DNA from: a virus
Taxonomy: Duplodnaviria > Caudoviricetes
Direction: 5' to 3' (one strand)
Virus record (IMG/VR): IMGVR_UViG_2974791771_000001
Coordinates: 1-64,000 of that record
Length of the DNA: 64,000 nt
Positions within the stretch are counted from its first letter, which is position 1. Every line of letters begins with the position of its first letter. The translations under genes were made by a program, and so were the position numbers. Below the pieces are notes generated by a model, which was not told the origin of the DNA, ran no database searches, and saw only the letters and a list, made by a program, of their open reading frames with translations. Shown here piece by piece: positions 49,595 to 62,161 of this stretch.

Positions 49595-50031
49595 TGAAGA
49601 AAACTGTTGCGGCGGTGTTGATTGCTGCGGTGGCCGGGTTGGGCTTGACGGCCTGCCACAGTGACGATGATTACGAGGATGTGAGCGCGGTCTGCGTCGA
49701 TCCCGCCACGAACGTCCGTCTCGATGATGACGAGTGTGACGACGATGATGGCCCTTCGGTGTGGTGGTACTACGGTGCCGGTGCTGCTGTTCCGGCTGTC
49801 GGGTATGCGGTGGCGAAGAACTCGGGGTCGTTCAAAAAACCTGCTCGTGCTCACATCCGGAAGGTGCCGCGCGTGGGTCAGGCGAAGCCTTCGGTGGTGA
49901 AGCCGCGTACGGCGTCGGCTCCGAAGCCCACGCAGAACAACAAGTCGTGGTTCGGTTCCAAGTCTTCGGGTTCGGGTTCGAAGTCGTCTTCTTCGGGTTC
50001 TCGGTCGGGAGGGTTCTCGCGTGGCCGCTGA
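49594..50031 (+). CDS. Lipoprotein with Ser/Gly-rich basic tail
   Basis: Lipobox LTAC; SSGSGSKSSSSGSRSGGFSRG. Confidence 0.75.
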   Translation: MKKTVAAVLIAAVAGLGLTACHSDDDYEDVSAVCVDPATNVRLDDDECDDDDGPSVWWYYGAGAAVPAVGYAVAKNSGSFKKPARAHIRKVPRVGQAKPSVVKPRTASAPKPTQNNKSWFGSKSSGSGSKSSSSGSRSGGFSRGR

Positions 50032-50941
50032 GCTAGTTGCCATGCGGGGCCTCCCCGCGTCAGGGAAGACCACCCGTGCACGGCAGATCGCGAAAGAGAC
50101 CGGCGCTGTTGTTGTGGGCCGGGACTTCGAACGCTTCCAGATGTTCGGCGAGTGGTGGACGGGCAAGCCTGAGCATGAGGATGCTGTCACGGTCGCCCTG
50201 AATGCCAAGGTGCGAGCCTTGCTGAAGGCGAATCAATCTGTGGTGGTTGACAACACGCACATTCAGGTCAGGTACCTGAAGGATTGGGCGAAGGTCGCTT
50301 CGGAGTGCGGGGCCACGTTCCGGATCGAAGATGTGAAGACTCCGCAGGATGTGTGCGAGGAACGCGACTTCTGGCGGGAGGGCGCGGGTGAACGGTTCGT
50401 CGGCCCTGAGGTGATTGCCCGGATGGCGAAGCAGATCAACTGGGGAATACCGAAGCCGGTAGCGCCCATCGTCGTTGAGCCCGTTGACCACAAGGTTGCC
50501 GAAGAGCTGATGCTTCCCGGCGCGATCATCGTGGACATCGACGGCACGCTCGCGCACATGACTGGCCGTAGCCCGTACGACTACAGCCGCGTCGGCGAAG
50601 ATCGGGTTGACCCCACCATCGCCAGAATGGTCCGGGAGTACGAACAACTCGGCTACGACATCATCGCGTGCTCGGGCCGGGACGACGAGTGCCGCACCAT
50701 GACTGTCGCATGGCTGCTCGCCAACGACATCCCGTTCCACAAGCTGCTCATGCGGCCCACCGACGCCAAGGATGCCAACGGCAACAAACTGCCCGACTGG
50801 ATCGTCAAGTACAACCTGTTCAACGAGAATGTGCGCGGCAAGTACGACGTGGAATTCGTTCTCGATGACCGCAACCAGGTTGTGGACATGTGGCGCAAGC
50901 TCGGCCTGAAGTGCTTGCAGGTTGCTCCCGGCGACTTCTGA
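50021..50941 (+). CDS. pnk: Polynucleotide 5'-kinase/3'-phosphatase (T4 PseT-like)
   Basis: P-loop GLPASGKTT; HAD DIDGT, SGR, DDR. Confidence 0.92.
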   Translation: MAAELVAMRGLPASGKTTRARQIAKETGAVVVGRDFERFQMFGEWWTGKPEHEDAVTVALNAKVRALLKANQSVVVDNTHIQVRYLKDWAKVASECGATFRIEDVKTPQDVCEERDFWREGAGERFVGPEVIARMAKQINWGIPKPVAPIVVEPVDHKVAEELMLPGAIIVDIDGTLAHMTGRSPYDYSRVGEDRVDPTIARMVREYEQLGYDIIACSGRDDECRTMTVAWLLANDIPFHKLLMRPTDAKDANGNKLPDWIVKYNLFNENVRGKYDVEFVLDDRNQVVDMWRKLGLKCLQVAPGDF

Positions 50942-51111
50942 TGTACGTCCCACCTGATCGTCCAGCACTCGAATGCCAAGCGTGCGGAACGGTATTGCAA
51001 GCCCTCACAGATGAGCAGGCCGCTGATGTCGCGCTCAATCCGTACAACTACATCGCCTTCTGTGCTCCGTGTAAGCGCAAGGGCTATCACATAGAACCAG
51101 GATTTCAATGA
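50941..51111 (+). CDS. Small Zn-finger protein
   Basis: CQAC...CAPC. Confidence 0.6.
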   Translation: MYVPPDRPALECQACGTVLQALTDEQAADVALNPYNYIAFCAPCKRKGYHIEPGFQ

Positions 51112-52427
51112 CCAACAGTCTCTCTGTTGTCGGCAGCAGCAACTACGCCGCACAGATCGTCCGCGTCCCCGCCACCTACCCGCTCGAAGGTCTCGACAAC
51201 CTCGTGGGCATCAAGGTTTTCAACAGCCAAATCCTCACGCAGAAGAACGAAGTCGAAGCGGGAGACCTCCGCATCTACTTCCCCGCAGAGGTTCGACTCT
51301 CCGACAAGTACCTGTCGGTCAACAACCTGTTCCGGGATCCGTTGCTCAACCGGGACAGCAAGGCCGCACCCGGCTACTTCGAAACCAACGGTCGAGTCAA
51401 GGCGATCAAGCTGCGCGGGCACCGTTCCGACGGCCTGCTGATGCCGCTCGATTCCCTGCTCGCATTCGGCGTTCGCAGTGAGGATTTGGTTGAGGGTGCC
51501 GTGTTCGACACGGTGAACGGGATTGAGATTTCCCGCAAGTATGAGGTGAAGACCTCGACGCCGGCCGACCCTTCCGCGAAGAAGGTGAAGAAGGCGTTCA
51601 AGCGGGTCACCACGAAGGTGTTCCCTGAGCACATCGACACCGATAACTTCTTCCGCAACCAGCATTTGCTTGACCCGTCGCGCGAGGTCATCATCACCCA
51701 GAAGCTTCACGGCACGAGCATTCGTGTGGGTCGAGTCCCGGTGCTGCGGGAGATCGGTCTGGTGGAGCGCATCTTCAACAAGGTGGGTGGCCTGTTCGGC
51801 ATCTCCACGCCGACTCACGCCTACGAGGTGGTGTGCGGTTCGCGGAAGGTCATCAAGGATGTGACGAACCCTCGTAGCCAGCACTACTACGGCACGGACA
51901 TCTGGTCGCAGTACGGCATTCAGATCGGTGACCTGATCCCTGAGGGCTTCATTGTGTACGGCGAGCTGGTCGGTTGGACGCCGGACGGCAAGCCGATCCA
52001 GAAGAACTACACCTACGATCTGCCGGTTGGTAAGCGCGAGCTGTACGTGTACCGGGTGGCTCGTGTGGATGTGAATGGCACGATGACTGATCTGTCGTGG
52101 GATGCGGTGCGCGAGTTCTGCGTTGAGCGCGGCCTGAAGCATGTGCCTGAGCTGTACCGGATCATCGAAGAGGATGAACTGTTCGGCGACAAGCTCGAAG
52201 ACCACGTGACGGCCCTGATGGACATTGCGTTCACCGACTACGCGGAAGACAACGTGCATCGGGATCCGCTGGTGCCGCTGTCCGATCCGAACACGGTCGA
52301 TGAGGGTGTCTGCATCCGCCAGGAACGTTCCGTTCCGACGATCCTCAAGGCGAAGTCGCCTGCGTTCCTTGAGCACGAAACCAAGCAGCTCGACACGGGC
52401 GAGGCCGACCTCGAAAGCGCAGCCTGA
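51108..52427 (+). CDS. rnl: RNA ligase, Rnl2/DRB0094-like
   Basis: Motif I TQKLHGTS, III YGELVG, IV EGVCIR, V LKAKS; N-terminal OB/tRNA-binding-like domain. Confidence 0.9.
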   Translation: MTNSLSVVGSSNYAAQIVRVPATYPLEGLDNLVGIKVFNSQILTQKNEVEAGDLRIYFPAEVRLSDKYLSVNNLFRDPLLNRDSKAAPGYFETNGRVKAIKLRGHRSDGLLMPLDSLLAFGVRSEDLVEGAVFDTVNGIEISRKYEVKTSTPADPSAKKVKKAFKRVTTKVFPEHIDTDNFFRNQHLLDPSREVIITQKLHGTSIRVGRVPVLREIGLVERIFNKVGGLFGISTPTHAYEVVCGSRKVIKDVTNPRSQHYYGTDIWSQYGIQIGDLIPEGFIVYGELVGWTPDGKPIQKNYTYDLPVGKRELYVYRVARVDVNGTMTDLSWDAVREFCVERGLKHVPELYRIIEEDELFGDKLEDHVTALMDIAFTDYAEDNVHRDPLVPLSDPNTVDEGVCIRQERSVPTILKAKSPAFLEHETKQLDTGEADLESAA

Positions 52428-52619
52428 ATGCAGAACGGACAATCCCAGTGTTACGTCGCTTTCCCTAGCGAGCACTTCGATGTGGAGTCCTTGCGCTTCG
52501 CGTATGACCAGCTCATTGGCATGGGCGTCCCCAGAACCCGGAAGCTCACCATCGAATCTGTACCCAAGGTGGGCGATGAGATGTGTGACGGAATCGCATT
52601 TGTGGAGGTAGTTCCATGA
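52428..52619 (+). CDS. Hypothetical protein
   Basis: Coupled ORF. Confidence 0.55.
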   Translation: MQNGQSQCYVAFPSEHFDVESLRFAYDQLIGMGVPRTRKLTIESVPKVGDEMCDGIAFVEVVP

Positions 52620-53467
52620 CAGTTCATCTCTATGCAGCCGACCTCACCGACAGGTCGAAACCACTCATCAACGTGCAACGCTTCCAGTTCCCTGGCGGCG
52701 AACAGCACCTCCACATGCCCGCGCTCATCGACGGCCACAACTACGAATGGGTGGCCGTAGTCCGGGGTGCCGACGCCAACGAGCTGGTGGCCGCTGGCCT
52801 GCTCTCGGACATCGCCTACCAGCGCGGCGAACCCTCATCTCTCCTGTTGCCGTATCTTCCGGCTGCACGAGCTGATCGGGGCCAGCCGTTCGCGCTCGAC
52901 ACCTACGCGAATGTCATTGGTGCGCTGAACTTCGATGTGGTCACCACGCTCGACGTGCACAGTCAGGTCGGCATTGACATCGAGTTCGGGGACTCGTATC
53001 ACGTGCACCTGTCGGCCACTCCCCTCGTTCTTGCGGCGGTGGAGCATCAGGACAAGTTTGATGCGGTGATCGCGCCGGACGCTGGCGCTCTTGACCGTGC
53101 GCGGTCTGTGGCCCTGGCCCTGCGGGTGCCCGTGTACAGCGGCGTGAAGGAACGGGACTTCGCGACCGGGAAGCTCACCAGCTTCTACTACTCGGGTCCG
53201 ACCAACGGCAATTTCCTTGTGGTCGATGACATCTGTGATGGCGGCGGCACGTTCGCCGGTTTCGCTGCGGTGTCGGGGATCCCTCGCGAGAACCTGTCGT
53301 TGTGGATCACGCATGGCATCTTCTCGAAGGGGTCTGCGTCGAATCTGTTCCGCAATTACAAGGCTGTGTATACGACGGATTCGCATCCGGGTTCGGCGAA
53401 TCTTCATGCGACTGTTCGTGTGCCGGTTGTGCCGCACATGTGGAAGCACGTAGCAGGAGGTCTGTGA
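52616..53467 (+). CDS. Ribose-phosphate pyrophosphokinase-like protein (candidate Adps of NARP1)
   Basis: FPGGEQH, LPYLPAARADR, DVHS, APDAGA, VVDDICDGGGTF. Confidence 0.85.
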   Translation: MTVHLYAADLTDRSKPLINVQRFQFPGGEQHLHMPALIDGHNYEWVAVVRGADANELVAAGLLSDIAYQRGEPSSLLLPYLPAARADRGQPFALDTYANVIGALNFDVVTTLDVHSQVGIDIEFGDSYHVHLSATPLVLAAVEHQDKFDAVIAPDAGALDRARSVALALRVPVYSGVKERDFATGKLTSFYYSGPTNGNFLVVDDICDGGGTFAGFAAVSGIPRENLSLWITHGIFSKGSASNLFRNYKAVYTTDSHPGSANLHATVRVPVVPHMWKHVAGGL

Positions 53468-53685
53468 TGGGTCGGATGCAAGTCAAGGATGCGGAGTCCA
53501 CCAAGCGCGTTCTTTCTATGGCCGACGATCAGTCGAAGTTGATCCTAACGGAAACGCTGGGATCTGGCGTTGCGGTCATAGAGGTTGCCGGTAGTTCCTA
53601 CAGTGCGTACGCCAGCATTGTGCTCGACAAAGAGTCCGCAGTCATTCTCGGTGAACGCCTCATCGAATTCGGAAGCCAACCCTGA
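53467..53685 (+). CDS. Hypothetical protein between the PRS-like and Nampt-like genes
   Basis: TGATG coupling. Confidence 0.6.
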   Translation: MGRMQVKDAESTKRVLSMADDQSKLILTETLGSGVAVIEVAGSSYSAYASIVLDKESAVILGERLIEFGSQP

Positions 53686-53693
53686 AAGGGACC

Positions 53694-55169
53694 ATGACCA
53701 AGTTTGCGCCCGTAGCGGCACTCTTCCAAACCGACGCCTACAAGCTCGGCCACATCCAGCAATACCAGCTCGCCGGAAACGTCACCCGCGTCTACAGCAA
53801 CTACACCAACCGCAAGAGCCGCATCCCCGGCGTCGACAACGTGGTGCACTTCGGCCTTCAGGCGTTCATCCAGAAGAACCTCATGGAAGCGTTTGAGCCG
53901 TTCTTTGAGTCCGATGAGGATGTTGTTGCCGAACTGTACGAAGAGCGCGTAGCGAGCATCCTGGGGCCGAACACGATCGGTTCCGATCACATCCGCGCCC
54001 TGCACCGACTCGGCTACCTGCCGCTGCGGTTCTGCGCGGTCCCGGAAGGCACCCTCGTGCCCATCCGGATCCCCACATTCACGGTGGAAAACACTCTGCC
54101 TGAGTTCTTCTGGCTGACCAACTACATCGAGACCGCGTTGTCGGCTGGCGTGTGGCAGGCGAGCACGTCCGCAACCATCGCCCGCGAGTACCGACAGATC
54201 CTCGACGTTGCGGCATGGGAGACGGGCAGCAGTTTCGATGCTGTCGACTTCCAGGTCCACGACTTCAGCTACCGGGGGATGAGTTCGAATGAGTCTGCCC
54301 AGGTTTCGGGTGCGGCGCACCTTCTTTCGTTCTCCGGGACAGACTCTCTCGTCGCTCTCGATTGGATTGACCGCTACTACGGAGGTTCGGATTACGTTGC
54401 GGCGTCGGTCCCCGCGACAGAGCACAGTGTCATGTGCACCGGCATTGCCAAGCTCGGTGAACAGGATATGTTCGCCAAGCTTCTCGACCTGTATCCGACC
54501 GGCATTGTGTCCATCGTCTCGGACACCTTCGACCTGTGGCGGGTACTGACTGAGTACCTTCCCGCGCTGAAGGACAAGGTTCTCGCCCGCGACGGCAAGC
54601 TGGTGATCCGTCCGGACTCGGGCGACCCGCAGAAGATCATCTGTGGCGACCCGGACGCCCCTGAGGGCAGCAACGAGTACCTGGGCGTGATCGGTCTGCT
54701 GGATCGCGTGTTCGGCTCCACCCCGAACAAGCTGGGCTACTACGAGCTGGACTCGCACGTCGGCATCATTTACGGCGATTCGATCACAACGGAGCGCGCT
54801 CAGGCCATCGTTGACGATCTCGCTTCGCAGAACTACGCCAGCACCAACGTGGTGTTCGGCGTGGGCAGCTTCACTTACCAGTACAACACCCGCGACACCT
54901 TCGGCTCGGCGCTGAAGGCTACGTGGGCTGAGGTGGACGGTGAGGGCGTGAACCTGCTCAAGGACCCCATCACTGACGACGGCACGAAGAAGTCGGCTAC
55001 GGGCCGTCTGGCGGTCGATTTGGATGGTGATGGTGAGTGGACGCTGATTGAGAAGGCCAGCCAGGACGAAGAGGCACTGAGCCTGCTTCAGCCTGTGTGG
55101 GAGAACGGCGAGTTCGTCACGCGTCAGACCTTCCAGGACGTGAGGGAAACGCTCGCACTCTGGGGGTGA
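53694..55169 (+). CDS. Nicotinamide phosphoribosyltransferase-like protein (candidate Namat of NARP1)
   Basis: TDAYKLGH, HDFSYRG, ATEHSV, SIVSDTFD, RPDSGDP, YGDSIT, KKSATG. Confidence 0.92.
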   Translation: MTKFAPVAALFQTDAYKLGHIQQYQLAGNVTRVYSNYTNRKSRIPGVDNVVHFGLQAFIQKNLMEAFEPFFESDEDVVAELYEERVASILGPNTIGSDHIRALHRLGYLPLRFCAVPEGTLVPIRIPTFTVENTLPEFFWLTNYIETALSAGVWQASTSATIAREYRQILDVAAWETGSSFDAVDFQVHDFSYRGMSSNESAQVSGAAHLLSFSGTDSLVALDWIDRYYGGSDYVAASVPATEHSVMCTGIAKLGEQDMFAKLLDLYPTGIVSIVSDTFDLWRVLTEYLPALKDKVLARDGKLVIRPDSGDPQKIICGDPDAPEGSNEYLGVIGLLDRVFGSTPNKLGYYELDSHVGIIYGDSITTERAQAIVDDLASQNYASTNVVFGVGSFTYQYNTRDTFGSALKATWAEVDGEGVNLLKDPITDDGTKKSATGRLAVDLDGDGEWTLIEKASQDEEALSLLQPVWENGEFVTRQTFQDVRETLALWG

Positions 55170-55174: not shown

Positions 55175-55561
55175 TTGGCGATCGACTACACCAAACCTGA
55201 GCGCACGAAAATCTCGTACAAGAAGATTCGTGTGCCGAACAGGTCGATGGCCCCACGCTTCGAGGCAATCAAGCCGTGCCCGAAGTGTGGGGCCTGGCGG
55301 GTCCACTGGATGCGTGAACCCAACCCGGATGTGCCCAACCTCGTCAACTTCTACGGCGAGTTTGTGTGCAGGGCCGACGATCCCGACGCTGAACGCATCA
55401 TCAAAGAGAACCGTCTTGAACGAGAGATAGTCGGGTGGGGAATGGTGCGCACAGTCCGCACAGTCTATGACGAGTCAGTCCGACCCGATCGTGACGACGA
55501 ACGCGGCTTCGAGGTGATCCGCCAATGCGTTGACTGCAAACACGAATGGGGAGAAATCTGA
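55175..55561 (+). CDS. Hypothetical Zn-ribbon protein
   Basis: CPKC..H, CVDC..W. Confidence 0.6.
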   Translation: MAIDYTKPERTKISYKKIRVPNRSMAPRFEAIKPCPKCGAWRVHWMREPNPDVPNLVNFYGEFVCRADDPDAERIIKENRLEREIVGWGMVRTVRTVYDESVRPDRDDERGFEVIRQCVDCKHEWGEI

Positions 55562-56391
55562 ACACAACCAGACAGATCGCATACGACAACCTGATGATGC
55601 TCGGCGTAGCCGGATCGCAGCTCTACGGCACCAACCTGGACAACGGCGACAACGACCAGATGGGCGTCTGCCTAGAGCCACCCGCCTACGTGACCGGCCT
55701 GTTCACCTTCGAGCAGTACCAGTACCATTCCGCCGGCAAGGATACTCGTTCCGGCGCAGACGATCTCGACCTCACTATCTACAGTCTGCGCAAGTGGGCG
55801 CGACTCGCAGCAGCAGGCAATCCCACGGTACTCCTGCTGGGTTTCACGCCGAAGCGACTCCTGCTGCACGACAGCGTGGATGGCCGAATCCTTCGAAACC
55901 ACATGGACAAGTTCATGTCCCGCCAAGCCGCAGGCAAGTTCTATGGCTACCTGGAATCGCAGCGCAAACAGATGCTCGGTCTCACCGGACGCAAGCACAG
56001 CAATCGTCCAGAACTCATCGAGCAGTACGGCTTCGACACCAAGTTCGCCTACCACGCAGTGCGACTCGGAATGCAAGGCGTCGAGTATCTGACCACCGGG
56101 CACATGACGCTGCCGATGCGCGACGAGGAACGCAACTACCTCATCGACATCCGGCAAGGCCGCGAGTCCTTCGAAGATGTGGTGACCGTCATCAACCTGT
56201 ACCAAGGGTTGCTGCTCAAACTGATGCGCTCCACTGATCTGCCGCCGCGTGCGGACTACGACTGGATCAACTCGTGGCTCACCGACACCTACATTACTCA
56301 CTGGGAACGCGAGGGGGTGGGTACTGACCTCTTGGCTAGACGAAGCTTCGGCAAGTCGATTCATAGGGCGTCACATCCGAACCCTGCGTAG
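55546..56391 (+). CDS. Pol-beta superfamily nucleotidyltransferase (RlaP/YcgL-like)
   Basis: GSQLYG..DNDQMG; GNPTVL; KFAYHAVRL. Confidence 0.85.
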   Translation: MGRNLNTTRQIAYDNLMMLGVAGSQLYGTNLDNGDNDQMGVCLEPPAYVTGLFTFEQYQYHSAGKDTRSGADDLDLTIYSLRKWARLAAAGNPTVLLLGFTPKRLLLHDSVDGRILRNHMDKFMSRQAAGKFYGYLESQRKQMLGLTGRKHSNRPELIEQYGFDTKFAYHAVRLGMQGVEYLTTGHMTLPMRDEERNYLIDIRQGRESFEDVVTVINLYQGLLLKLMRSTDLPPRADYDWINSWLTDTYITHWEREGVGTDLLARRSFGKSIHRASHPNPA

Positions 56392-56780: not shown

Positions 56781-56847
56781 CTGATCGTCAGATGGGACAT
56801 CTGCAGAGGTTTTGTAGGGTGCGCGGGTTCGAGTCCCGCCGATCAGA
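56781..56847 (+). ncRNA. tRNA-like element without a canonical anticodon arm
   Basis: CTGATCG/CGATCAG 7-bp acceptor; GCGGG-TTCGAGT-CCCGC T arm; CAGATG/CATCTG hairpin. Confidence 0.6.
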
Positions 56848-56855
56848 CGGGCGCA

Positions 56856-56959
56856 GATGCGTAGATTGTGGTTACTTCACTAATTGGATATGCAGGTTCA
56901 AGTCCTGCCGTCGGGGTGTAAAGTTACCCGACGTTTGTTCCACGATCGACCAAGTTCAC
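56856..56959 (+). ncRNA. Y-RNA-like unit A1 (T-arm containing)
   Basis: GATGCGTAG..GTTACTTC 5' motif; GCAGG-TTCAAGT-CCTGC; CGTCGGG/CCCGACG; 3' CAAGTTCAC. Confidence 0.7.
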
Positions 56960-56979
56960 TCGCGCCAACAACCACCCCA

Positions 56980-57042
56980 GATGCGAAGGCTGCACAGTTA
57001 CTTCAATTGGATGAAACGCACACTGTGTGCCATCCAGTTCCC
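56980..57042 (+). ncRNA. Y-RNA-like unit B1 (short)
   Basis: GATGCGAAG..GTTACTTCAA..GATGAAAC..CAGTTCCC. Confidence 0.65.
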
Positions 57043-57064
57043 TGGGGTTACATCTTCACGTTCA

Positions 57065-57247
57065 GATGCGTAGAGACGTTGGTTACTTCCATTTTAAGGA
57101 CGAGGTTGCGGGTTCGAATCCCGCCTGCGCTATGTTTACCCGAAGGTAGGGCCTGGCATAAAGGCCAGTGGTGGGGTTCGAATCCCCGGCTGTGACGGTA
57201 GCTCAATTGGCAGAGCGCGTAAAAACACCAACACTCGGCAAGTTCCC
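57065..57247 (+). ncRNA. Y-RNA-like unit A2 (YrlA-like permuted tRNA mimic with two T arms)
   Basis: GATGCGTAG..GTTACTTC; T arms at 57108-57124 and 57173-57187; D arm GCTC-AATTGGCA-GAGC after the T arm; 3' CAAGTTCCC. Confidence 0.75.
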
Positions 57248-57270
57248 TGAACGATCAAACATTCCGCCGT

Positions 57271-57339
57271 GATGCGAAGCAAGAACGTTACTTCAACTGC
57301 TGATAGATGAAACCCACACGTTCATGCGCCACAGTTCAC
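57271..57339 (+). ncRNA. Y-RNA-like unit B2 (short)
   Basis: GATGCGAAG..GTTACTTCAA..GATGAAAC..CAGTTCAC; GAACGT/ACGTTC stem. Confidence 0.65.
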
Positions 57340-57371
57340 ACGGCACAATTCAACACACAGGAGCAGAAGGA

Positions 57372-58970
57372 ATGTCGCGCTACAACACCGCCACCAAGGC
57401 CCGACCCGCACAAAAGTCGAGCGCCATCAAGGCAGGTACGAAGCCCAAAACCAACCCACAGGGTGGAACCGGATTCAAGCGCGGCGACGCCAAGTCCGAA
57501 CTGTTCCTTTCCGCTGCAACCTCATTCATGCAGCCCAAATTCTACGAAACCGAGAACGATCTCCGCACGCGACAGCGCAAGCTCATCGCCAAGGTGGCCG
57601 TCTCCGACCCGGAGTGGACCTTCGAGTTCCTGACATGGCTCCGCACCGAAGGCAACCTGCGCACCGGGTCGCTCACCCTGGCCGCTGACGCCGTTTATGA
57701 GCGCCTGAAGGCGGGTAGGTACGAGCACGGCTGGAACCGTGCGATCATCTCCACGGTCCTGCGCCGGCCGGACGAGCCTGGCGAAATGCTTGCCTACTGG
57801 ACCAGCAACTACGGTCGCAACGTGCCGATCTCGGTCAAGCGTGGCATCGCGGATGTCATCGAGGGACAGTACAACGAGCGCAACTTTCTGAAGTACGACA
57901 GTGCCTCTCGCGCCTTCCGGTTCGGTGATGTGATCGAGCTGACCCATCCGAAGATGACGGGCAGCCGGGGTGATCTCGCCTCGTATGCGATCACTGTGGG
58001 TAAGGGCCGTGACGCCGAGATTCCTGATTCTCTGCCGATGATTCGAGAGAATCGCTCACTCCGCGCCACGGGCCTGAGCCCGAAGGTTCGCAAGTTGATC
58101 GCGGATCGAGGTGGCGACCTCTCCCAGGTTCTTGCTGCTGCTGGTATGACGTGGGAAGACATCCCCTCACTCGTCAACGGCCCCTGGACCCCCGAACTGT
58201 GGGAAGCCGCCATCCCCAACATGGGAGTCATGGCGCTCATGCGCAACCTCCGCAACTTCGACCAGGTCGGCATCTCCAAGCAAGCCGCAAAGATGGTCCG
58301 AGACAAACTGTCCGACCGTGAAGCCGTCCTCAAGTCCCGCATCCTTCCCCTCCGCGCACTCAGCGCCTACAAGGCCGTCAGCAACTCCCGCTGGCACGGC
58401 GCACTCGAAGACGCGGTGGACATCACCCTGGACAACGTTCCCGCCCTGAAGGGCCGCACGCTGATCCTCGTGGACTGCTCGGGATCGATGTTCTTCAGCA
58501 ACGGCACCGACCTGAGCTACGCGGAGTCGGCAGCCGTGTTCGGCACCGCGCTCGCCGCCAAGGCTGACAATGCGACTCTCGTGCACTACGGGTCGAACTC
58601 GCGTGAGGTCAAGGTGCCTCGTGGAGCTTCGGTGTTGGAGATGGCCCGCTCGGTGCACAGCATGGGTGGTACGGCCACCGCAGAGGCGATCCAGGCCCAC
58701 TACAACGGCCACGATCGAGTGATCCTGCTGACCGACGAGCAGCACAATGGTGGAGGCTACGGATGGGGCTCACGCTACGTGTCGGCGAGCCCTGGCGACT
58801 ATGTGCCCAAGCACATCCCGCTCATCACCTTCAACCTCGCCGGATACAAACTCGGCGGCGTCAAAGACGAACCCAACCGGCTCACCTTCTCGTCCCTCTC
58901 GGACAGTGCATGGAAGCTGGTCGACATGTTCGGCAACGGCGCAACCGGATGGCCCTGGGAGGCTAAGTGA
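57372..58970 (+). CDS. rsr: Ro60/Rsr TROVE-domain RNA-binding protein with vWA domain
   Basis: ELFL...FYE, RTEGNLRT, MGVMALMRNLRNF, SRILPLR, MIDAS DCSGS, LTDEQ. Confidence 0.92.
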   Translation: MSRYNTATKARPAQKSSAIKAGTKPKTNPQGGTGFKRGDAKSELFLSAATSFMQPKFYETENDLRTRQRKLIAKVAVSDPEWTFEFLTWLRTEGNLRTGSLTLAADAVYERLKAGRYEHGWNRAIISTVLRRPDEPGEMLAYWTSNYGRNVPISVKRGIADVIEGQYNERNFLKYDSASRAFRFGDVIELTHPKMTGSRGDLASYAITVGKGRDAEIPDSLPMIRENRSLRATGLSPKVRKLIADRGGDLSQVLAAAGMTWEDIPSLVNGPWTPELWEAAIPNMGVMALMRNLRNFDQVGISKQAAKMVRDKLSDREAVLKSRILPLRALSAYKAVSNSRWHGALEDAVDITLDNVPALKGRTLILVDCSGSMFFSNGTDLSYAESAAVFGTALAAKADNATLVHYGSNSREVKVPRGASVLEMARSVHSMGGTATAEAIQAHYNGHDRVILLTDEQHNGGGYGWGSRYVSASPGDYVPKHIPLITFNLAGYKLGGVKDEPNRLTFSSLSDSAWKLVDMFGNGATGWPWEAK

Positions 58971-59045: not shown

Positions 59046-59762
59046 TTGAGTGAGCTGCACGATGCCGCGCTGAACTACCTGTACGAAGGATTCAAAGTCT
59101 TCCCGCTATGGCCTGGCGGGAAAACACCACTCATCAAACACGGCCTGCTCGAAGCGACGGACGACCCGGCCATTGTGGACGAATGGTGGGGACGCTGCCC
59201 GCAGGCAAACATTGGGGTGAGGGTGCCGGAACGAGTTGTAGTCATCGACATAGACCCCCGCTCTGGGGGCACACTCGACCAGCTCGGACCAATCCCACGA
59301 ACACGCACAGCAGCAACAGGTGGCGGCGGATGGCATCTCCTATTCAGGCATGTTGGACGAGCACGAGGAAAGCTAGATGATGCCCGTGGTATCGACATCA
59401 AAACTAACAGCGGCTATATCGTTGGTGCGCCAAGCGTTCACGAGTCTGGCCGACGCTATCGCTGGACTGATCGAGGCCCTATCGCGGACCTTCCGGCATC
59501 CTTGCTCCGTCGGGTATCCCCTGCTCCCCCGCAGGTGGTGTGGGACGACCCTGGTGTGGGATCCACCAAGGGATTGGTTGCCACTGTCGCGGATGCGGTT
59601 GAGGGCGAACGGAACCACAAATTCTTCTGGGCTGCGTGTCGGGCCTATCAAGAGGGGGCTGATGCTGAGTTGATGGGCGCGTTGGTAAATGCTGCTCGTT
59701 CGATTGGGTTGACTGAGCGTGAGATTGGGTTGTCTCTGCGTTCCGCTCAGGCCCGCGTATGA
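59046..59762 (+). CDS. Bifunctional DNA primase/polymerase (Prim-Pol)
   Basis: VFPLWPGGKTP, ANIG, VVIDIDPR, GGGWHLLF, GYIVGAPS. Confidence 0.9.
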   Translation: MSELHDAALNYLYEGFKVFPLWPGGKTPLIKHGLLEATDDPAIVDEWWGRCPQANIGVRVPERVVVIDIDPRSGGTLDQLGPIPRTRTAATGGGGWHLLFRHVGRARGKLDDARGIDIKTNSGYIVGAPSVHESGRRYRWTDRGPIADLPASLLRRVSPAPPQVVWDDPGVGSTKGLVATVADAVEGERNHKFFWAACRAYQEGADAELMGALVNAARSIGLTEREIGLSLRSAQARV

Positions 59763-60118: not shown

Positions 60119-60191
60119 CGTGCCCGACTGTGCACGTAAACAGTCCGCAGACGACAATCGGCAGGAACACTGCGGTATCAAAAGTTCCCAC

Positions 60192-60265
60192 CCCATGTAG
60201 CGTTGGTGTAGAGAGCACACTGGTGTGCAAAGCCAGAGGCGTGGGTGCAATTCCTGCACGTGTAC
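60192..60265 (+). tRNA. tRNA-Cys(GCA), degenerate acceptor and D arm
   Basis: CTGGT-GTGCAAA-GCCAG; T loop TGCAATT. Confidence 0.55.
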
Positions 60266-60267
60266 TT

Positions 60268-60340
60268 GCCTTAGAAACCGAATTGGCTAGGTGCCTGACT
60301 TCCAATCAGGATTTTGCGGGTTCGAGTCCCGTCTAAGGCT
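60268..60340 (+). tRNA. tRNA-Gly(TCC)
   Basis: GCCTTAG/CTAAGGC; CCTGA-CTTCCAA-TCAGG; canonical T arm. Confidence 0.9.
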
Positions 60341-60438
60341 CAATGGGACGCCAGAGATAAACACTGGTGCGGTCGAAGCTGACCCGATTCAGAAACCCGC
60401 CGATTCCCGATCACAGGCCGACTGTATAACCGGATCCT

Positions 60439-60509
60439 AGGGTGGTAGCTCAGTGGTAGAGCGGTGGTCTCCAAAACCACGTGCCGGGGTTCGATTCCCC
60501 GTCACCTTG
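60439..60509 (+). tRNA. tRNA-Trp(CCA)
   Basis: GTGGT-CTCCAAA-ACCAC; canonical D and T arms. Confidence 0.92.
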
Positions 60510-60551
60510 CGGTGTTCAGTATCCTTGCAGTTCAACCGGATTGAACGTTCA

Positions 60552-60625
60552 CTCTCCGTAGCTCAGATGGTCAGAGCAGGGCACTCTTAATGCTCGGGTC
60601 GCAGGTTCGAATCCTGCCGGGGAGA
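60552..60625 (+). tRNA. tRNA-Lys(CTT)
   Basis: CTCTCCG/CGGGGAG; GGGCA-CTCTTAA-TGCTC. Confidence 0.93.
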
Positions 60626-60700
60626 CGGCCCTCCTGTTGGGGTTATACGTCAGATCGCTACTGACACAACAGGCCATCAGGTCGGCCTACCTGATGGAAA

Positions 60701-60769
60701 GTCGCATAGTTTAACTGGTGAGAACAGCTTCCCTGTGGGGCGAGTGTCGGTTCGAATCCGGCTGCGACG
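60701..60769 (+). tRNA. tRNA with aberrant anticodon arm (His GTG or Gln CTG ambiguous)
   Basis: GTCGCA/TGCGAC; good D and T arms; anticodon plus variable region about 2 nt short. Confidence 0.55.
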
Positions 60770-61011
60770 CGATGGGGTGGTATTCCCAGTTTGCACAACC
60801 AGTCGACGGTCCGTGCTTGAAAAATGACCAGGGCGGCATTGCAGTGCCAAGTAACCATGACGGACTAAGCCCGATGAAGGCCGTCTAACCCCTCGCTGGT
60901 CAAGCCCTGCAAGGTACGGGCCGGGGACAATTTGGAGCCGTGGTCAAGCGGGACGCGGACTGTCACGAGAAGTGACCCTCACGGCAATGGGGAGGCCATC
61001 TCATTGTCCTT
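60770..61011 (+). ncRNA. Multi-stem structured RNA between tRNAs
   Basis: TGACCAG/CTGGTCA and GGGGACAAT/ATTGTCCTT closing stems enclosing several hairpins. Confidence 0.55.
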
Positions 61012-61012
61012 C

Positions 61013-61095
61013 CCCCACTTGGCGAAATGGGAAACGCGCGGCACTCAAAATGCCGTACCCGAAAGGGTTTGTGAGTTCGACTCTCACAGTGGGGA
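61013..61095 (+). tRNA. tRNA-Leu(CAA)
   Basis: CCCCACT/AGTGGGG; CGGCA-CTCAAAA-TGCCG; long variable arm. Confidence 0.92.
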
Positions 61096-61096
61096 C

Positions 61097-61469: not shown

Positions 61470-61472
61470 CAC

Positions 61473-61661
61473 ATGGCATTTGGTCGTAAGAAGAAGCGCG
61501 CTGAGGACACCTACCGCCCGAACACTTACAGCGGCAGTAGCTACAACGCCCCGTACGGCGGCTACAGCAACAGCGGCTACGACGGTGGTTCGTACACGTC
61601 GTCGTGTGACAACTCTTCGTCCTCGTCGTCCTCGTGCGACAGTGGCGGCGGCGGGTTCTGA
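61473..61661 (+). CDS. Ser/Gly/Tyr-rich small protein
   Basis: YSGSSYNAPYGGYSNSGYDGGS...SSSSSSCDSGGGG. Confidence 0.65.
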   Translation: MAFGRKKKRAEDTYRPNTYSGSSYNAPYGGYSNSGYDGGSYTSSCDNSSSSSSSCDSGGGGF

Positions 61662-61840
61662 TGGGAACCGCGCTAGTGATCGCGGGCATCTTCGGGGGCG
61701 CGCTCTTGATTGGAGCTGCGGTTGCCCTCGTCGCGAAAGCTGTGCTCGACTCGCCCCTGTCGCAGGGAAGCTCAACCTACAAGGGCGGGTTTGACCTCAG
61801 TCACCCCACGGGGGTTGCACTACTGGTGGCGGCAACCTGA
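61661..61840 (+). CDS. Small membrane protein
   Basis: Hydrophobic N-terminus. Confidence 0.55.
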   Translation: MGTALVIAGIFGGALLIGAAVALVAKAVLDSPLSQGSSTYKGGFDLSHPTGVALLVAAT

Positions 61841-61944
61841 TGGGGATCCTTGAAATCATCGGCGCGGCAGCGGTAGTTACAGCTATCGGCTACGTCGCGT
61901 ACGTGGTTGGGCTGGCTGTCGCATTCCATCGCGGCTGGCTGTAG
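61840..61944 (+). CDS. Small membrane peptide, 34 aa
   Basis: TGATG coupling; single TM. Confidence 0.5.
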   Translation: MGILEIIGAAAVVTAIGYVAYVVGLAVAFHRGWL

Positions 61945-61951
61945 GCCACAT

Positions 61952-62022
61952 TCCCTGATCGTCTAACGGCAGGACGCCACGCTCTGGACGTGGAGATCGA
62001 GGTTCGAATCCTTGTCGGGGAG
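61952..62022 (+). tRNA. tRNA-Gln(CTG)
   Basis: TCCCTGA/TCGGGGA; CCACG-CTCTGGA-CGTGG. Confidence 0.92.
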
Positions 62023-62078
62023 CTTGCCCTTGGGATGGGGTGCGGTCGACCGTAACCGCTACACAAATACGGTCACTA

Positions 62079-62161
62079 CTGGGTGCCGCCTACCCTGGTT
62101 TGGCAGCGGCCTGTAAAGCCGTCGCGGAAACGCATTGGGAGTTCAAATCTCTCCACCCAGA
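62079..62161 (+). tRNA. tRNA-Tyr(GTA)
   Basis: CTGGGTG/CACCCAG; GCGGC-CTGTAAA-GCCGT; long variable arm. Confidence 0.88.

What the first reader, a model, noticed from the sequence alone, without database searches (positions are those of the whole stretch)
50021..62161. ~12-kb island combining tRNA repair, Ro60/Y RNA, tRNA replacement and NAD+ salvage
Seen: pnk, Rnl2-like ligase, PRS-like, Nampt-like, Pol-beta NTase, Y-like RNAs, Ro60 and at least 6 canonical tRNAs lie in one co-oriented block. Established: Pnk plus Rnl heal and seal cleaved tRNA (T4 versus PrrC); bacterial Rsr is often linked to RNA repair genes; RlaP-family NTases adenylate RNA 3'-phosphates. Inference: a layered phage system (decoy, chaperone, repair, replace) against translation-targeting and NAD-depleting immunity, unusually complete for a temperate phage of this size.
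Basis: partly seen in the sequence, partly recalled or inferred. Interest (0 to 1): 0.82.

Follow-up and report, generated by a model that had tools for sequence, protein, structure and literature searches.

The report
Phage RNA-repair, NAD-rebuilding, Ro60 gene block
A temperate Gordonia phage carries, side by side, known gene sets for mending cut tRNAs, rebuilding NAD+, a Ro60 protein with four Y-like RNAs and seven tRNAs. All parts are real, but the same block is already present and annotated in sequenced relatives, so it is a good model rather than a new kind of system.

Summary
Window 50021-62162 encodes a bifunctional Pnkp, an RNA ligase, a PRS-like/Nampt-like pair, an RlaP nucleotidyltransferase, four Y-like RNA units, Ro60 and seven tRNAs plus one decayed copy.

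Three details need correcting:
- The ligase has the Rnl5 (Naegleria NgrRnl) architecture, not Rnl2.
- The PRS/Nampt pair is NARP1 (Adps plus Namat, with the exact Namat motif GSFTYQYNTRD), not ordinary salvage.
- RlaP adds one or two nucleotides to RNA 3'-OH ends; it does not adenylate 3'-phosphates.

The block also holds a Prim-Pol gene and small ORFs. Co-orientation means little, because the whole right arm of the closest annotated relative, Trax, reads one way.

The genome is a 76.8-kb relative of Gordonia phages Trax and Neville, which carry and annotate the same block. Syleon, in the same subfamily, keeps Pnkp-Rnl-Adps-Namat-RlaP-tRNAs but has no TROVE gene, so the Y/Ro60 segment is a separate cassette. 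Cluster L mycobacteriophages of similar size have most of this toolkit in dispersed form. A Tsukamurella prophage-like locus and an unrelated 106-kb viral contig repeat parts of it in other gene orders. The concept was published for jumbo phages.

Verdict: a mosaic of known restoration modules and a new member of a known kind. The decoy and chaperone roles are untested. This scan also noted the same block in an overlapping window of this genome, not on other DNA.

The parts
50021..50941 (+). Pnkp: 5'-kinase plus 3'-phosphatase (T4 Pnkp type)
   Evidence: Pfam AAA_33 (aa 5-138) and HAD_PNKP (aa 166-306, E 3.5e-51). phrog_505 E 2e-99. P-loop GLPASGKT at aa 10 and DIDGT at aa 172.
50890..51111 (+). 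Small ORF between Pnkp and the ligase, in the position of Trax gp82. Function unknown.
   Evidence: ORF list. No Pfam family. Trax annotation.
51108..52427 (+). ATP-dependent RNA ligase with Rnl5 (NgrRnl/DraRnl) architecture: N-terminal OB domain plus C-terminal nucleotidyltransferase
   Evidence: Pfam RNA_ligase plus PHA02142 OB. Weak TIGR02306 (DraRnl) match. In the AF2 model (pLDDT 80) the best Foldseek matches are NgrRnl 5COT/6VT1 over both domains at E 1e-13; T4 Rnl2 scores E 5e-7 over fewer columns. Motif I KLHGT; K199 invariant. 54-56% identical to ligases of mycobacteriophages Omega, Porky and 244.
52428..52619 (+). 63-aa ORF with no aligned counterpart in Trax. Function unknown.
   Evidence: no family. 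Gap in the blastn alignment to Trax.
52616..53467 (+). Adps, the ADP-ribose pyrophosphokinase of NARP1 (PRPP-synthetase-like)
   Evidence: phrog_619 E 2e-63. Below every NCBIfam Prs cut-off. DDICDGGGT at aa 204-212, K178 and H115 fit the reference Adps residues D212, D213, I214, C215, K185 and H121 (PMC13586617). Sits directly upstream of Namat.
53464..53685 (+). Roughly 73-aa ORF between Adps and Namat. The start is inferred from Trax gp85. Function unknown.
   Evidence: Trax annotation. No Pfam family on the longer frame 53302-53685.
53694..55169 (+). Namat, the nicotinamide ADP-ribose transferase of NARP1 (Nampt-like)
   Evidence: Best solved relatives are the Namat crystal structures 9W5X/9W5W at 467 bits, against about 240 bits for true Nampts. 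The Namat signature GSxFxFxFTRD is present as GSFTYQYNTRD at aa 391-401, (motif from PMC12774641).
55175..55561 (+). 128-aa zinc-ribbon ORF after Namat (CPKC ... CVDC). Function unknown.
   Evidence: (phrog_15197, unknown function).
55546..56391 (+). RlaP-family Pol-beta nucleotidyltransferase
   Evidence: Pfam PF10127 at 99.3 bits (cut-off 23). phrog_388. GS...DND motif.
56781..56848 (+). tRNA-like element: 7-bp acceptor-like stem, T arm, reduced D arm
   Evidence: Relaxed ARAGORN. T-arm match. The acceptor stem CTGATCG/CGATCAG changes to CTGACTG/CAGTCAG in Trax, with both strands changed together.
56848..56970 (+). Y-like RNA unit 1 (long; carries a T arm)
   Evidence: Outer stem GGCGC/GCGCC and inner stem GATTGTGG/CCACGATC, with motifs GATGCGTAG, TTACTTC and AGTTCAC.
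56974..57050 (+). Y-like RNA unit 2 (short)
   Evidence: Outer stem CCCCAG/CTGGGG, inner stem GCACA/TGTGC, same motifs.
57056..57258 (+). Y-like RNA unit 3. YrlA-like, with a T arm followed by a D arm. Carries a 68-nt insert with a second T arm that Trax lacks.
   Evidence: Rfam YrlA at 31.5 bits, E 1.1e-4 in a 1-kb search. The Trax counterpart scores 44 bits. Outer stem CGTTCAG/CTGAACG. Insert seen in the alignment.
57264..57346 (+). Y-like RNA unit 4 (short). Overlaps the upstream ATG of the Ro60 frame.
   Evidence: Outer stem CCGTG/CACGG, inner stem GAACGT/ACGTTC.
57372..58970 (+). Ro60/Rsr orthologue (TROVE plus vWA). The frame is open from 57324, but the likely start is 57372.
   Evidence: Pfam TROVE E 3.5e-16 and VWA_2. 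MIDAS motif DCSGS. PDB 9KOP (phage phiLo Ro60) E 2e-21 and Rsr 2NVO. 45-53% identical over full length to actinobacterial TROVE proteins, and the 532-aa form is the one on record.
59046..59762 (+). Prim-Pol (DNA primase/polymerase). Lies in the block but has no evident link to RNA repair or NAD.
   Evidence: Pfam Prim-Pol E 1.4e-35.
60192..60265 (+). Decayed tRNA-like sequence (Cys-GCA-like, with a mismatched acceptor stem)
   Evidence: Rfam tRNA at 31.7 bits, partial, at 60201-60260. Relaxed ARAGORN.
60268..60341 (+). tRNA-Gly(TCC)
60439..60510 (+). tRNA-Trp(CCA), not annotated in Trax
60552..60626 (+). tRNA-Lys(CTT)
60700..60770 (+). tRNA-Gln(CTG), atypical: C at position 33, low score
   Evidence: (36.4 bits).
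61013..61096 (+). tRNA-Leu(CAA)
61952..62023 (+). tRNA-Gln(CTG)
62079..62162 (+). tRNA-Tyr(GTA)
   Evidence: Rfam 39.4 bits. Relaxed ARAGORN. Annotated as tRNA-Tyr in Trax.

Best explanation
The block is a compound accessory locus of a temperate, 76.8-kb Gordonia siphovirus. It is built from four modules that are each already known, and that most likely act in parallel rather than as one machine. All four restore what abortive-infection defences destroy.

1. RNA end repair.
- Pnkp converts 5'-OH and 3'-phosphate (or 2',3'-cyclic phosphate) ends into 5'-phosphate and 3'-OH ends.
- RlaP can add back one or two nucleotides at the 3'-OH.
- The Rnl5-type ligase seals the break.

2. NARP1.
- Adps pyrophosphorylates ADP-ribose.
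- Namat joins the product to nicotinamide, rebuilding NAD+ after NADase effectors have cleaved it.

3. Ro60 and its RNAs. Ro60 is probably bound by four Y-like RNAs encoded just upstream. This RNP probably handles structured or damaged RNA, possibly by recruiting host PNPase.

4. tRNA supply. Seven tRNA genes top up or replace host tRNAs.

What is shown: the sequence identity of the parts, and their conserved linkage in relatives. What is inferred: that their targets are defence-inflicted damage, and everything about the Ro60/Y role.
For: Identity of the parts:
- Family and motif evidence for every gene.
- The NARP1 mechanism and its anti-defence role are experimental (bioRxiv 10.1101/2024.02.11.579819; PMC12774641; PMC13586617).
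- RlaP biochemistry is from bioRxiv 10.64898/2025.12.29.696909.

Y-like RNAs:
- There are four units. Their eight stems are perfectly complementary yet all different in sequence, and they flank conserved motifs.
- The motif TTACTTC occurs 5 times in the 64-kb window, 4 of them here. It also clusters upstream of Ro60 in VanLee, LuckySocke, Kela and Tsukamurella soli.
- Sub-threshold YrlA matches lie upstream of Ro60 in Trax, VanLee and Kela.

Linkage:
- The same order is found in Trax and Neville at about 87% nucleotide identity.
- Syleon, in another genus with a ligase 60% identical, has Pnkp-Rnl-Adps-Namat-RlaP-tRNAs.
- Of 19 actinophage-like Namat loci, 11 have Pnkp and 13 have the ligase within 10 kb, in two different gene orders.
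- Contig L084 (G+C 52%) has Ro60-Adps-Namat-RlaP-phosphoesterase-Rnl5 within 8 kb.
- The T. soli prophage-like locus has RlaP, a Pnkp-type phosphatase, Y-like units, Ro60 and tRNA-Gln.

Modularity:
- Syleon has no TROVE gene anywhere in its genome.
- VanLee, LuckySocke and Kela lack NARP1.
Against: - No expression or functional data exist for this phage; no RNA run is listed.
- NgrRnl-type ligases seal nicks in duplex RNA. Their natural substrates are unknown, so tRNA anticodon-loop repair is an assumption.
- The phage tRNAs read both common codons (AAG 86% and CAG 86% of their families in the phage) and rarer ones (TTG, GGA). Neither codon supply nor nuclease evasion is therefore demonstrated, and host tRNAs were not compared.
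- A replication gene (Prim-Pol) sits inside the block, and DNA-metabolism genes flank it. Part of the clustering may simply reflect a general 'early accessory gene' region.
- The defence systems of Gordonia terrae were not examined.
Confidence: 0.65

Rival explanations
1. One integrated Ro60-centred repair particle. The Y-like RNAs, through their tRNA-like domains, tether Ro60 to Pnkp, RlaP and the ligase, and perhaps also act as decoys for anticodon nucleases. On this view the RNA genes and the enzymes form a single physical machine, analogous to the Salmonella rsr-yrlBA-rtcBA operon.
For: - RlaP, then the Y array, then Ro60 recurs in that order in the window, in Trax, in the T. soli locus and, more loosely, in VanLee.
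- Kela has an RNA ligase directly upstream of Ro60.
- L084 packs Ro60 together with RlaP, a phosphoesterase and a ligase.
- Comparative genomics has proposed Ro/TROVE as a platform for RNA repair with a tRNA-like partner (PMC7824862).
- The anticodon-like loop of unit 3 differs between close relatives inside an otherwise identical stretch: TTT here, GC in Trax.
Against: - Syleon keeps Pnkp-Rnl-NARP1-RlaP-tRNAs with no TROVE gene in its genome, so the enzymes do not need Ro60.
- The only shown partners of bacterial and phage Ro60/Y RNPs are exoribonucleases such as PNPase (PMC4201824, PMC12135203).
- No binding evidence of any kind was obtained here.
Confidence: 0.15
2. General host take-over and auxiliary metabolism, unrelated to defence. 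The tRNAs adjust codon supply for a phage of 59% G+C in a higher-G+C host (host composition is from memory and was not checked here). NARP1 raises NAD+ for replication enzymes. Pnkp and the ligase tidy nucleic-acid ends during replication or recombination. Ro60/Y redirects host RNA decay.
For: - The block lies among replication, recombination and nucleotide-metabolism genes: DnaB, SSB and RusA upstream, Prim-Pol inside, ThyX, RNR and Mre11 downstream.
- TTG and GGA, read by two of the tRNAs, are minority codons in the phage.
- Overexpressing the Ro-like protein, Pnkp, Adps or RNA ligase of LeBron is toxic to the host (PMC13148394), which shows that they act on host processes.
Against: - NARP1 is largely phage-specific, and its deletion specifically sensitises phages to NAD-depleting defences.
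- Its substrates, ADP-ribose plus nicotinamide, are the products of NADases.
- Several of the tRNAs read the commonest codons (AAG, CAG, TGG).
- Trp-CCA and Gln-CTG are targets of VapC toxins in a related genus (PMC5175351).
Confidence: 0.15
3. Adjacency with no functional meaning: a mosaic of unrelated accessory genes that happen to sit together in one phage lineage.
For: - Actinophage genomes are highly mosaic.
- All right-arm genes of the annotated relative Trax are co-oriented.
- The tRNA set and small ORFs already differ between this phage and Trax.
- RlaP, Ro60 and NARP1 are far apart in JoeDirt, LuckySocke and Kela.
Against: - Order is kept across two genera at about 60% protein identity.
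- NARP1 lies next to Pnkp or the ligase in at least two different gene orders.
- Similar sets are assembled independently in L084 and in the T. soli locus.
Confidence: 0.05

Closest known systems
Gordonia phages Trax and Neville (Nevillevirus, Deeyouvirinae), records MK967378 and MH651182
   Same: The same block in the same order, at about 87% nucleotide identity over 86% of the stretch. Genes are already annotated as polynucleotide kinase, RNA ligase, phosphoribosyl pyrophosphate transferase, nicotinate ribosyltransferase, nucleotidyltransferase, Ro-like RNA binding protein, primase/polymerase and tRNAs. Trax is annotated with a tyrosine integrase, repressor, Cro and excise, so it is temperate.
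   Different: - This phage has an extra 63-aa ORF at 52428-52619 and a shorter ORF after Namat.
- Y unit 3 carries a 68-nt insert.
- The tRNA set differs: Trp and a decayed copy here, His and a second Tyr in Trax.
- The records do not annotate the Y-like RNAs, and they name the NARP1 genes as ordinary metabolic enzymes.
NARP1 (Adps plus Namat) of phages SpbetaL1, Bas63 and Fado
   Same: A two-gene pair with Adps directly upstream of Namat. The Namat motif is identical to that of SpbetaL1. The Adps DDICD loop, Lys and His are all in place.
   Different: - A roughly 73-aa ORF lies between the two genes, and a zinc-ribbon ORF follows them.
- No Macro (Adpp) or RyR (RyDEP) accessory domain was found.
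- The pair is embedded between an RNA ligase and RlaP. That context is not mentioned in the NARP1 papers I searched.
T4 Pnkp plus Rnl1/Rnl2 tRNA repair against PrrC, and mycobacteriophage Pnkp (Omega, Cjw1)
   Same: A bifunctional kinase/HAD phosphatase next to an ATP-dependent RNA ligase. The ligase is 54-56% identical to those of Omega, Porky and 244.
   Different: The ligase is built like NgrRnl/DraRnl (Rnl5), with an N-terminal OB domain. Its substrate is unknown, and no PrrC-like target is known in Gordonia.
Bacterial and phage Ro60-Y RNA RNPs (D. radiodurans Rsr/Yrn1, Salmonella Rsr/YrlA/YrlB, mycobacteriophage YrlA, Thermus phage phiLo Ro60/Yrl1-2)
   Same: Ro60 with a vWA/MIDAS domain. 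Y-like RNAs sit directly upstream on the same strand. At least one unit has the T-arm-then-D-arm tRNA-like domain of YrlA.
   Different: - There are four tandem units of two alternating types.
- All score below the Rfam YrlA cut-off.
- The conserved motifs GATGCG(T/A)AG, TTACTTC and AGTTC(A/C) are not the published GNCGAAN0-1G motif.
- Unit 3 carries a second T arm.
RNA-repair, tRNA-provisioning and NAD+ counter-restriction systems described for jumbo phages (Iyer et al. 2021, PMC7824862)
   Same: The same conceptual set: Pnk, phosphoesterases, RNA ligases, RlaP, Ro/TROVE with a tRNA-like partner, tRNAs and NAD+ synthesis genes, all read as counters to self-targeting host immunity.
   Different: Here the set sits in a 76.8-kb temperate siphovirus and is packed into about 12 kb. 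The NAD+ module is NARP1 rather than the Nampt/Nmnat route.

Membership tests
T4-type polynucleotide kinase-phosphatase (Pnkp) | N-terminal P-loop kinase domain with GxxxxGK(S/T) | tested here: met
   AAA_33 at aa 5-138. GLPASGKT at aa 10-17.
T4-type polynucleotide kinase-phosphatase (Pnkp) | C-terminal HAD phosphatase with DxDxT | tested here: met
   HAD_PNKP at 173.5 bits against a cut-off of 27.6. DIDGT at aa 172-176.
T4-type polynucleotide kinase-phosphatase (Pnkp) | 5'-kinase and 3'-phosphatase activity on RNA ends | not testable with these tools
   Needs an enzyme assay.
Rnl2 RNA ligase (T4 Rnl2 / REL1) | N-terminal nucleotidyltransferase followed by the Rnl2-specific C-terminal domain | tested here: not met
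   The nucleotidyltransferase is C-terminal (aa 192-415) and preceded by an OB domain. T4 Rnl2 aligns over about 280 columns at E 5e-7, against 424-445 columns for NgrRnl.
Rnl5 RNA ligase (NgrRnl / DraRnl) | N-terminal OB domain plus C-terminal adenylyltransferase domain | tested here: met
   PHA02142 OB plus RNA_ligase. Foldseek top 13 hits are NgrRnl, 424-445 aligned columns, E 1e-13 to 1e-11. High rmsd, so domain orientation differs or is uncertain.
Rnl5 RNA ligase (NgrRnl / DraRnl) | Motif I lysine (KxxG) for adenylylation | tested here: met
   KLHGT at about aa 199. K199 and G202 are invariant in 20 homologues.
Rnl5 RNA ligase (NgrRnl / DraRnl) | Sealing of 3'-OH/5'-PO4 nicks in duplex RNA | not testable with these tools
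   Needs an enzyme assay.
NARP1: Namat | [quoted passage not shown] | tested here: met
   GSFTYQYNTRD at aa 391-401, identical to SpbetaL1 Namat.
NARP1: Namat | Closer to Namat than to Nampt | tested here: met
   467 bits to 9W5X/9W5W (Namat) against about 240 bits to mammalian Nampts.
NARP1: Adps | PRPS-like protein directly next to Namat (true of 97% of the Adps clade) | tested here: met
   52616-53467 ends 227 nt before Namat. In 80 IMG/VR loci, almost all motif-bearing Namat genes have the Prs-like gene 0.4-2.1 kb upstream.
NARP1: Adps | Adps active-site pattern: D212, D213, I214, PP loop from C215, catalytic K185, H121 (PMC13586617) | tested here: met
   DDICDGGGT at aa 204-212, K178 and H115, with a consistent offset. 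Matched by pattern only, because the reference sequence was not in hand.
NARP1: Adps | Not a canonical PRPP synthetase | tested here: met
   Below all 11 NCBIfam Prs cut-offs; the best is 85.6 bits against 113.
NARP1 | Makes NAD+ from ADP-ribose, ATP and nicotinamide, and rescues the phage from NADase defences | not testable with these tools
   Needs biochemistry and plaque assays.
RlaP (PF10127) | Pfam score above the gathering cut-off, and a Pol-beta GS...DxD motif | tested here: met
   99.3 bits against 23. GSQLYGTNLDNGDND.
RlaP (PF10127) | Encoded near an RNA ligase | tested here: met
   3.1 kb downstream of the ligase, on the same strand.
Ro60 / Rsr | TROVE domain plus vWA domain with a MIDAS motif | tested here: met
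   TROVE at 59.8 bits against 23, and VWA_2. DCSGS. Full-length 45-53% identity to actinobacterial TROVE proteins.
Ro60 / Rsr | NCBIfam Rsr equivalog score | tested here: not met
   35 bits against a cut-off of 900. That model is narrow, so this does not argue against a TROVE/Ro60 fold.
Ro60 / Rsr | Binds Y RNA | not testable with these tools
   Needs RIP or EMSA.
YrlA Y RNA (Rfam RF02553) | Score at or above the gathering cut-off of 69 bits | tested here: not met
   31.5 bits in the window. 44 bits in Trax, 47 and 33 in VanLee, 36 in Kela.
YrlA Y RNA (Rfam RF02553) | tRNA-like domain with the T arm before the D arm, closed by a stem | tested here: met
   Alignment to the model. Outer stem CGTTCAG/CTGAACG.
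YrlA Y RNA (Rfam RF02553) | Within 4 kb of Ro60 (criterion of PMC4201824) | tested here: met
   The array ends at, and overlaps, the start of the Ro60 frame.

The most novel reading that the evidence does not exclude
NAD+ reconstitution and RNA repair may be functionally coupled in phages, not merely neighbours. NARP1 is embedded in or beside Pnkp/Rnl/RlaP/Ro60 loci in at least three gene orders:
- Deeyouvirinae: Pnkp-Rnl-Adps-Namat-RlaP.
- Cluster L mycobacteriophages: Adps-Namat-Pnkp...Rnl.
- The unrelated contig L084: Ro60-Adps-Namat-RlaP-phosphoesterase-Rnl5.

Two kinds of coupling are conceivable. One is metabolic: for example, the Pnkp or other phosphoesterase might also dephosphorylate ADP-ribose-1''-phosphate for NARP1, as Macro-domain Adpp does. 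The other is tactical: a single set of genes answering defence systems that pair NADase and tRNase effectors. I found no paper that reports this linkage.
Probability: 0.15. Interest if true: 0.7.

Novelty: new member of a known kind. Interest (0 to 1): 0.4.

Why it matters
Every module here is already described, and the same block is public in Trax and Neville. The find does not add a new kind of system.

Its value is practical. This is a small temperate phage whose closest relatives were isolated on Gordonia terrae 3612. It packs NARP1, a full heal/add/seal RNA repair set, Ro60 with four Y-like RNAs and a tRNA array into 12 kb.

Natural comparators exist. Syleon lacks only the Ro60/Y cassette, and VanLee, LuckySocke and Kela lack NARP1. 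That makes the group a convenient system for asking what phage Ro60/Y RNPs do, and whether they work with RNA repair enzymes, which remains unanswered for bacterial Ro60 as well.

The recurrent placing of NARP1 next to RNA repair genes is a small comparative observation. It deserves a proper statistical test.

Tried and rejected
- Sequence searches of the ligase against solved structures found nothing useful, with a single sequence or with a 20-sequence profile. Only the fold comparison classified it.
- Thermodynamic folding of the Y region gave weak z-scores of -0.6 to -2.6, so I rely on the covarying stems among the four units instead.
- I tested whether the Y region is more conserved against Trax than the flanking genes. 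It is not: identical stretches alternate with indels, and the 5' part of Ro60 is equally conserved.
- The promoter and terminator scan of 49000-63000 was not above chance, so operon structure is unresolved.
- Small ORFs (50890-51111, 52428-52619, 53302-53685, 55175-55561, 56392-56640, 58747-59049, 59759-59920, 61173-61469, 61480-61794) gave no Pfam family. In particular there was no Macro (Adpp) or RyR (RyDEP) domain. The Atlas look-up of the zinc-ribbon ORF was uninformative.
- A Ro60 search in IMG/VR with the single protein found only Trax.
- tblastn against phage records found Ro60 in 80 records. This undercounts, because the cluster L 'Ro-like' proteins reported in papers were not reached.
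- No RNA holder is listed among public runs.
A 68.5-kb relative holding a 68%-identical Ro60 and a 71%-identical ligase therefore could not be fetched.
- Host tRNAs were not retrieved, so the anticodon-loop comparison with Gordonia tRNAs was not done.
- No complex-prediction job was sent, because I do not claim that any of these proteins bind each other.

Full report
WHAT THE WINDOW IS. The window is the first 64 kb of a single 76,821-bp contig. Its nearest public relatives are Gordonia phages Trax and Neville (Nevillevirus, subfamily Deeyouvirinae). They match 86% of 50021-62161 at about 87% nucleotide identity. Trax is annotated with a tyrosine integrase, immunity repressor, Cro and excise, so 'temperate' is reasonable. 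In Trax every gene to the right of the repressor, through the stretch I fetched, is on one strand, so co-orientation of the block says nothing. G+C content is flat across the window. GC skew drops to about zero from 50 kb onward.

CHECK OF THE OBSERVATION. All the named elements exist.
- Pnkp, 50021-50941: a P-loop kinase plus HAD phosphatase with intact GLPASGKT and DIDGT.
- RNA ligase, 51108-52427: PF09414 preceded by an OB domain.
- PRS-like gene, 52616-53467, and Nampt-like gene, 53694-55169.
- RlaP, 55546-56391: 99 bits against a cut-off of 23.
- Ro60, open from 57324 and probably starting at 57372, ending at 58970: TROVE plus vWA with the MIDAS motif DCSGS. It is 45-53% identical over its whole length to chromosomal TROVE proteins of Tsukamurella, Gordonia and Streptomyces.
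- tRNAs: ARAGORN finds Gly-TCC, Trp-CCA, Lys-CTT, Gln-CTG twice, and Leu-CAA. Rfam adds Tyr-GTA and a decayed copy.
- None of the tRNAs encodes its CCA end.
- The first Gln has C33 and a low score.

THREE CORRECTIONS.
1. The ligase is not Rnl2-like in architecture. An AlphaFold model built on 20 homologues (pLDDT 80) matches Naegleria gruberi RNA ligase over both domains at E 1e-13. T4 Rnl2 scores E 5e-7 over fewer columns. With the weak DraRnl hit and motif I KLHGT, this is an Rnl5-type enzyme. It is 54-56% identical to the ligases of mycobacteriophages Omega, Porky and 244.
2. The PRS-like/Nampt-like pair is NARP1.
   - The Nampt-like protein scores 467 bits to the Namat crystal structures 9W5X/9W5W, against about 240 bits to true Nampts.
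   - It carries the published Namat signature as GSFTYQYNTRD, identical to SpbetaL1.
   - The PRS-like protein falls below every NCBIfam Prs cut-off.
   - It has DDICDGGGT, K178 and H115 where the Adps structure paper places D212-D213-I214-C215, K185 and H121.
   - NARP1 rebuilds NAD+ from ADP-ribose and nicotinamide and defeats Thoeris, DSR1/2, SIR2-HerA and SEFIR.
3. RlaP, in the only biochemical study I found, adds one or two NMPs to RNA 3'-OH ends. It is proposed to restore a nucleotide removed by RloC-type toxins before a 5'-phosphate ligase seals the break. It does not adenylate 3'-phosphates.

THE Y-LIKE RNAS. Rfam's YrlA model matches 57084-57247 at 31.5 bits, E 1.1e-4 in a 1-kb search, below the cut-off of 69. 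The same model matches just upstream of Ro60 in Trax (44 bits), VanLee (47 and 33 bits) and Kela (36 bits).

The region holds four tandem units: 56848-56970, 56974-57050, 57056-57258 and 57264-57346. Each reads, in order:
- outer stem
- GATGCG(T/A)AG
- inner stem
- TTACTTC
- variable domain
- inner-stem complement
- AGTTC(A/C)
- outer-stem complement

All eight stems are perfectly complementary, yet each has a different sequence. Covariation among paralogues is stronger evidence than the weak folding z-scores. An earlier first-stage note of this scan (e1-5923890) gave me the wording of this architecture, and I checked it myself.

TTACTTC occurs five times in the 64-kb window, four of them here. 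It clusters in three or four copies upstream of Ro60 in VanLee, LuckySocke and Kela, and two exact copies lie upstream of Ro60 in Tsukamurella soli.

A tRNA-like element at 56781-56848 precedes the array. Its acceptor-like stem changes on both strands between this phage and Trax. Unit 3 has a 68-nt insert with a second T arm that Trax lacks.

IS THE LINKAGE MORE THAN CHANCE?
- Syleon (Octobienvirus, same subfamily, ligase 60% identical) has Pnkp-hyp-Rnl-Adps-Namat-hyp-RlaP-HTH-tRNAs and no TROVE gene anywhere. The segment from the Y array through Ro60, with the adjacent Prim-Pol gene, therefore looks like an insertion peculiar to Nevillevirus. Whether Syleon has a Prim-Pol elsewhere was not checked.
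- JoeDirt (cluster L, temperate, 75 kb) has Adps-Namat-hyp-Pnkp. Its ligase lies 4 kb further on and RlaP sits at 28 kb.
- LeBron (cluster L1) is reported to encode a Ro-like protein, Adps, Pnkp and RNA ligase (PMC13148394).
- All five actinophage genomes I scanned have both RlaP and a PNKP-type phosphatase.
- Among 80 Namat loci from IMG/VR, 19 are at least 62% identical. Of these, 11 have Pnkp and 13 have the ligase within 10 kb, in two gene orders. tblastn with actinophage queries may miss distant versions in the other loci.
- Contig L084 (106 kb, G+C 52%) has Ro60-Adps-Namat-two small ORFs-RlaP-metallophosphoesterase-a second phosphoesterase-like ORF-Rnl5-type ligase within 8 kb.
- A prophage-like locus in T. 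soli has RlaP (48% identical), a PNKP-type phosphatase, Y-like units, Ro60 (53% identical) and tRNA-Gln(CTG).

The same data show that the modules come and go independently.

HOW IT MOST LIKELY WORKS. I favour four parallel restoration modules.
- Break repair of RNA: Pnkp heals the ends, RlaP refills missing nucleotides, Rnl5 seals.
- NAD+ reconstitution by NARP1.
- An Ro60/Y RNP for structured or damaged RNA.
- tRNA supply.

Shown: the sequence identity of the parts, and their linkage. Inferred: that the substrates are defence-damaged tRNAs. NgrRnl-type enzymes are duplex-nick sealers with unknown natural targets.

Also inferred is that the tRNAs replace cleaved host tRNAs. Three points bear on this:
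- They read both the commonest codons (AAG and CAG, each 86% of its family) and rarer ones (TTG 23%, GGA 9%) in the phage.
- Trp-CCA and Gln-CTG are VapC targets in mycobacteria (PMC5175351).
- Host tRNAs were not compared.

The Ro60 role is inferred entirely. The known partners of bacterial and phage Ro60/Y are exoribonucleases such as PNPase. 'Decoy' and 'chaperone' remain ideas.

COMPARISON WITH WHAT IS KNOWN, AND NOVELTY.
- The block is already public and gene-annotated in Trax and Neville.
- NARP1, RlaP, T4-type Pnkp, Rnl5, phage Ro60/Y RNA and phage tRNA replacement are each published.
- The overall idea was laid out for jumbo phages in 2021 (PMC7824862): RNA repair plus tRNA provisioning plus NAD+ counter-restriction, with Ro/TROVE and RlaP.
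- The claim of unusual completeness for a temperate phage of this size is weakened by cluster L mycobacteriophages.

What is particular here is the compact packing, and the nesting of NARP1 inside an RNA-repair gene string. I found only one paper that mentions both NARP1 and RNA ligase, a database survey, and I did not read it for this point. The NARP1 discovery paper mentions neither tRNA nor actinophages.

I class the find as a new member of a known kind, with interest 0.4. The scan's other notes on this block come from this same genome, not from other DNA.

Noticed in passing
window 56392-57073; L001 10357-11170 (Trax gp89-gp93): Small 'hypothetical protein' ORFs lie over the tRNA-like element and the Y-like RNA array. 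Examples are the window ORFs 56392-56640 (Arg/Pro/Thr-rich) and 56792-57073, and Trax gp91-gp93. They are probably not protein-coding.
   Followed up: partly
L004 9716-9787 (VanLee 65454-65525): The annotated tRNA-Arg(tct) of VanLee scores only 26.9 bits, below the Rfam tRNA cut-off. It overlaps a YrlA-like match (9756-9819) inside a four-unit TTACTTC array upstream of Ro60. It looks like part of a Y-like RNA rather than a tRNA.
   Followed up: partly
window 57090-57100 (loop CCATTTTAAGG in Y unit 3): The only two substitutions against Trax in an otherwise invariant stretch of about 100 nt fall in the middle of an anticodon-like loop: TTT here, and GC at the same two positions in Trax. The T. 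soli unit reads GTC at the equivalent place. This could be diversification of a mimic's 'anticodon', or chance.
   Followed up: partly
L084 7590-15558 (IMGVR_UViG_3300049825_000338): An unrelated 106-kb viral contig (G+C 52%) has Ro60, Adps, Namat, RlaP, a calcineurin-like phosphoesterase, a second phosphoesterase-like ORF and an Rnl5-type ligase within 8 kb. No tRNA or YrlA match was found within 10 kb on either side.
   Followed up: partly
L089 1769-13414 (Tsukamurella soli NZ_BAABFR010000026.1): A prophage-like locus with a DnaB-type helicase and many small co-oriented ORFs carries RlaP, a PNKP-type phosphatase, Y-like units, Ro60 and tRNA-Gln(CTG), in the same order as the phage. The phage Ro60 is closer to this copy (53%) than to that of phage VanLee (47%).
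   Followed up: partly
window 59758-61260 against L001 13700-15000: The tRNA array turns over quickly between close relatives. This phage has Trp-CCA and a decayed Cys-like copy where Trax has His-GTG and an extra Tyr-GTA. The low-scoring Gln-CTG at 60700-60770 is not annotated in Trax.
   Followed up: partly
window 50001-64000: GC skew falls from +0.05 to +0.2 (8-50 kb) to about zero from 50 kb to the end of the window, while G+C content stays the same. The shift extends beyond the block, through ThyX and the following genes.
   Followed up: no
window 57324-57372: The Ro60 frame is open from ATG 57324, but those first 16 codons overlap Y unit 4. The 532-aa form starting at 57372 is the one on record and matches the Trax annotation.
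   Followed up: partly
window 53464-53685 and 55175-55561: Two small ORFs bracket Namat: one of about 73 aa between Adps and Namat, and a 128-aa zinc-ribbon protein after it. Accessory genes occupy comparable positions in other NARP1 operons (Adpp between Adps and Namat in Vibrio phage Gary; RyDEP inserted within the operon in DyoEdafos). Neither ORF shows a known domain.
   Followed up: partly
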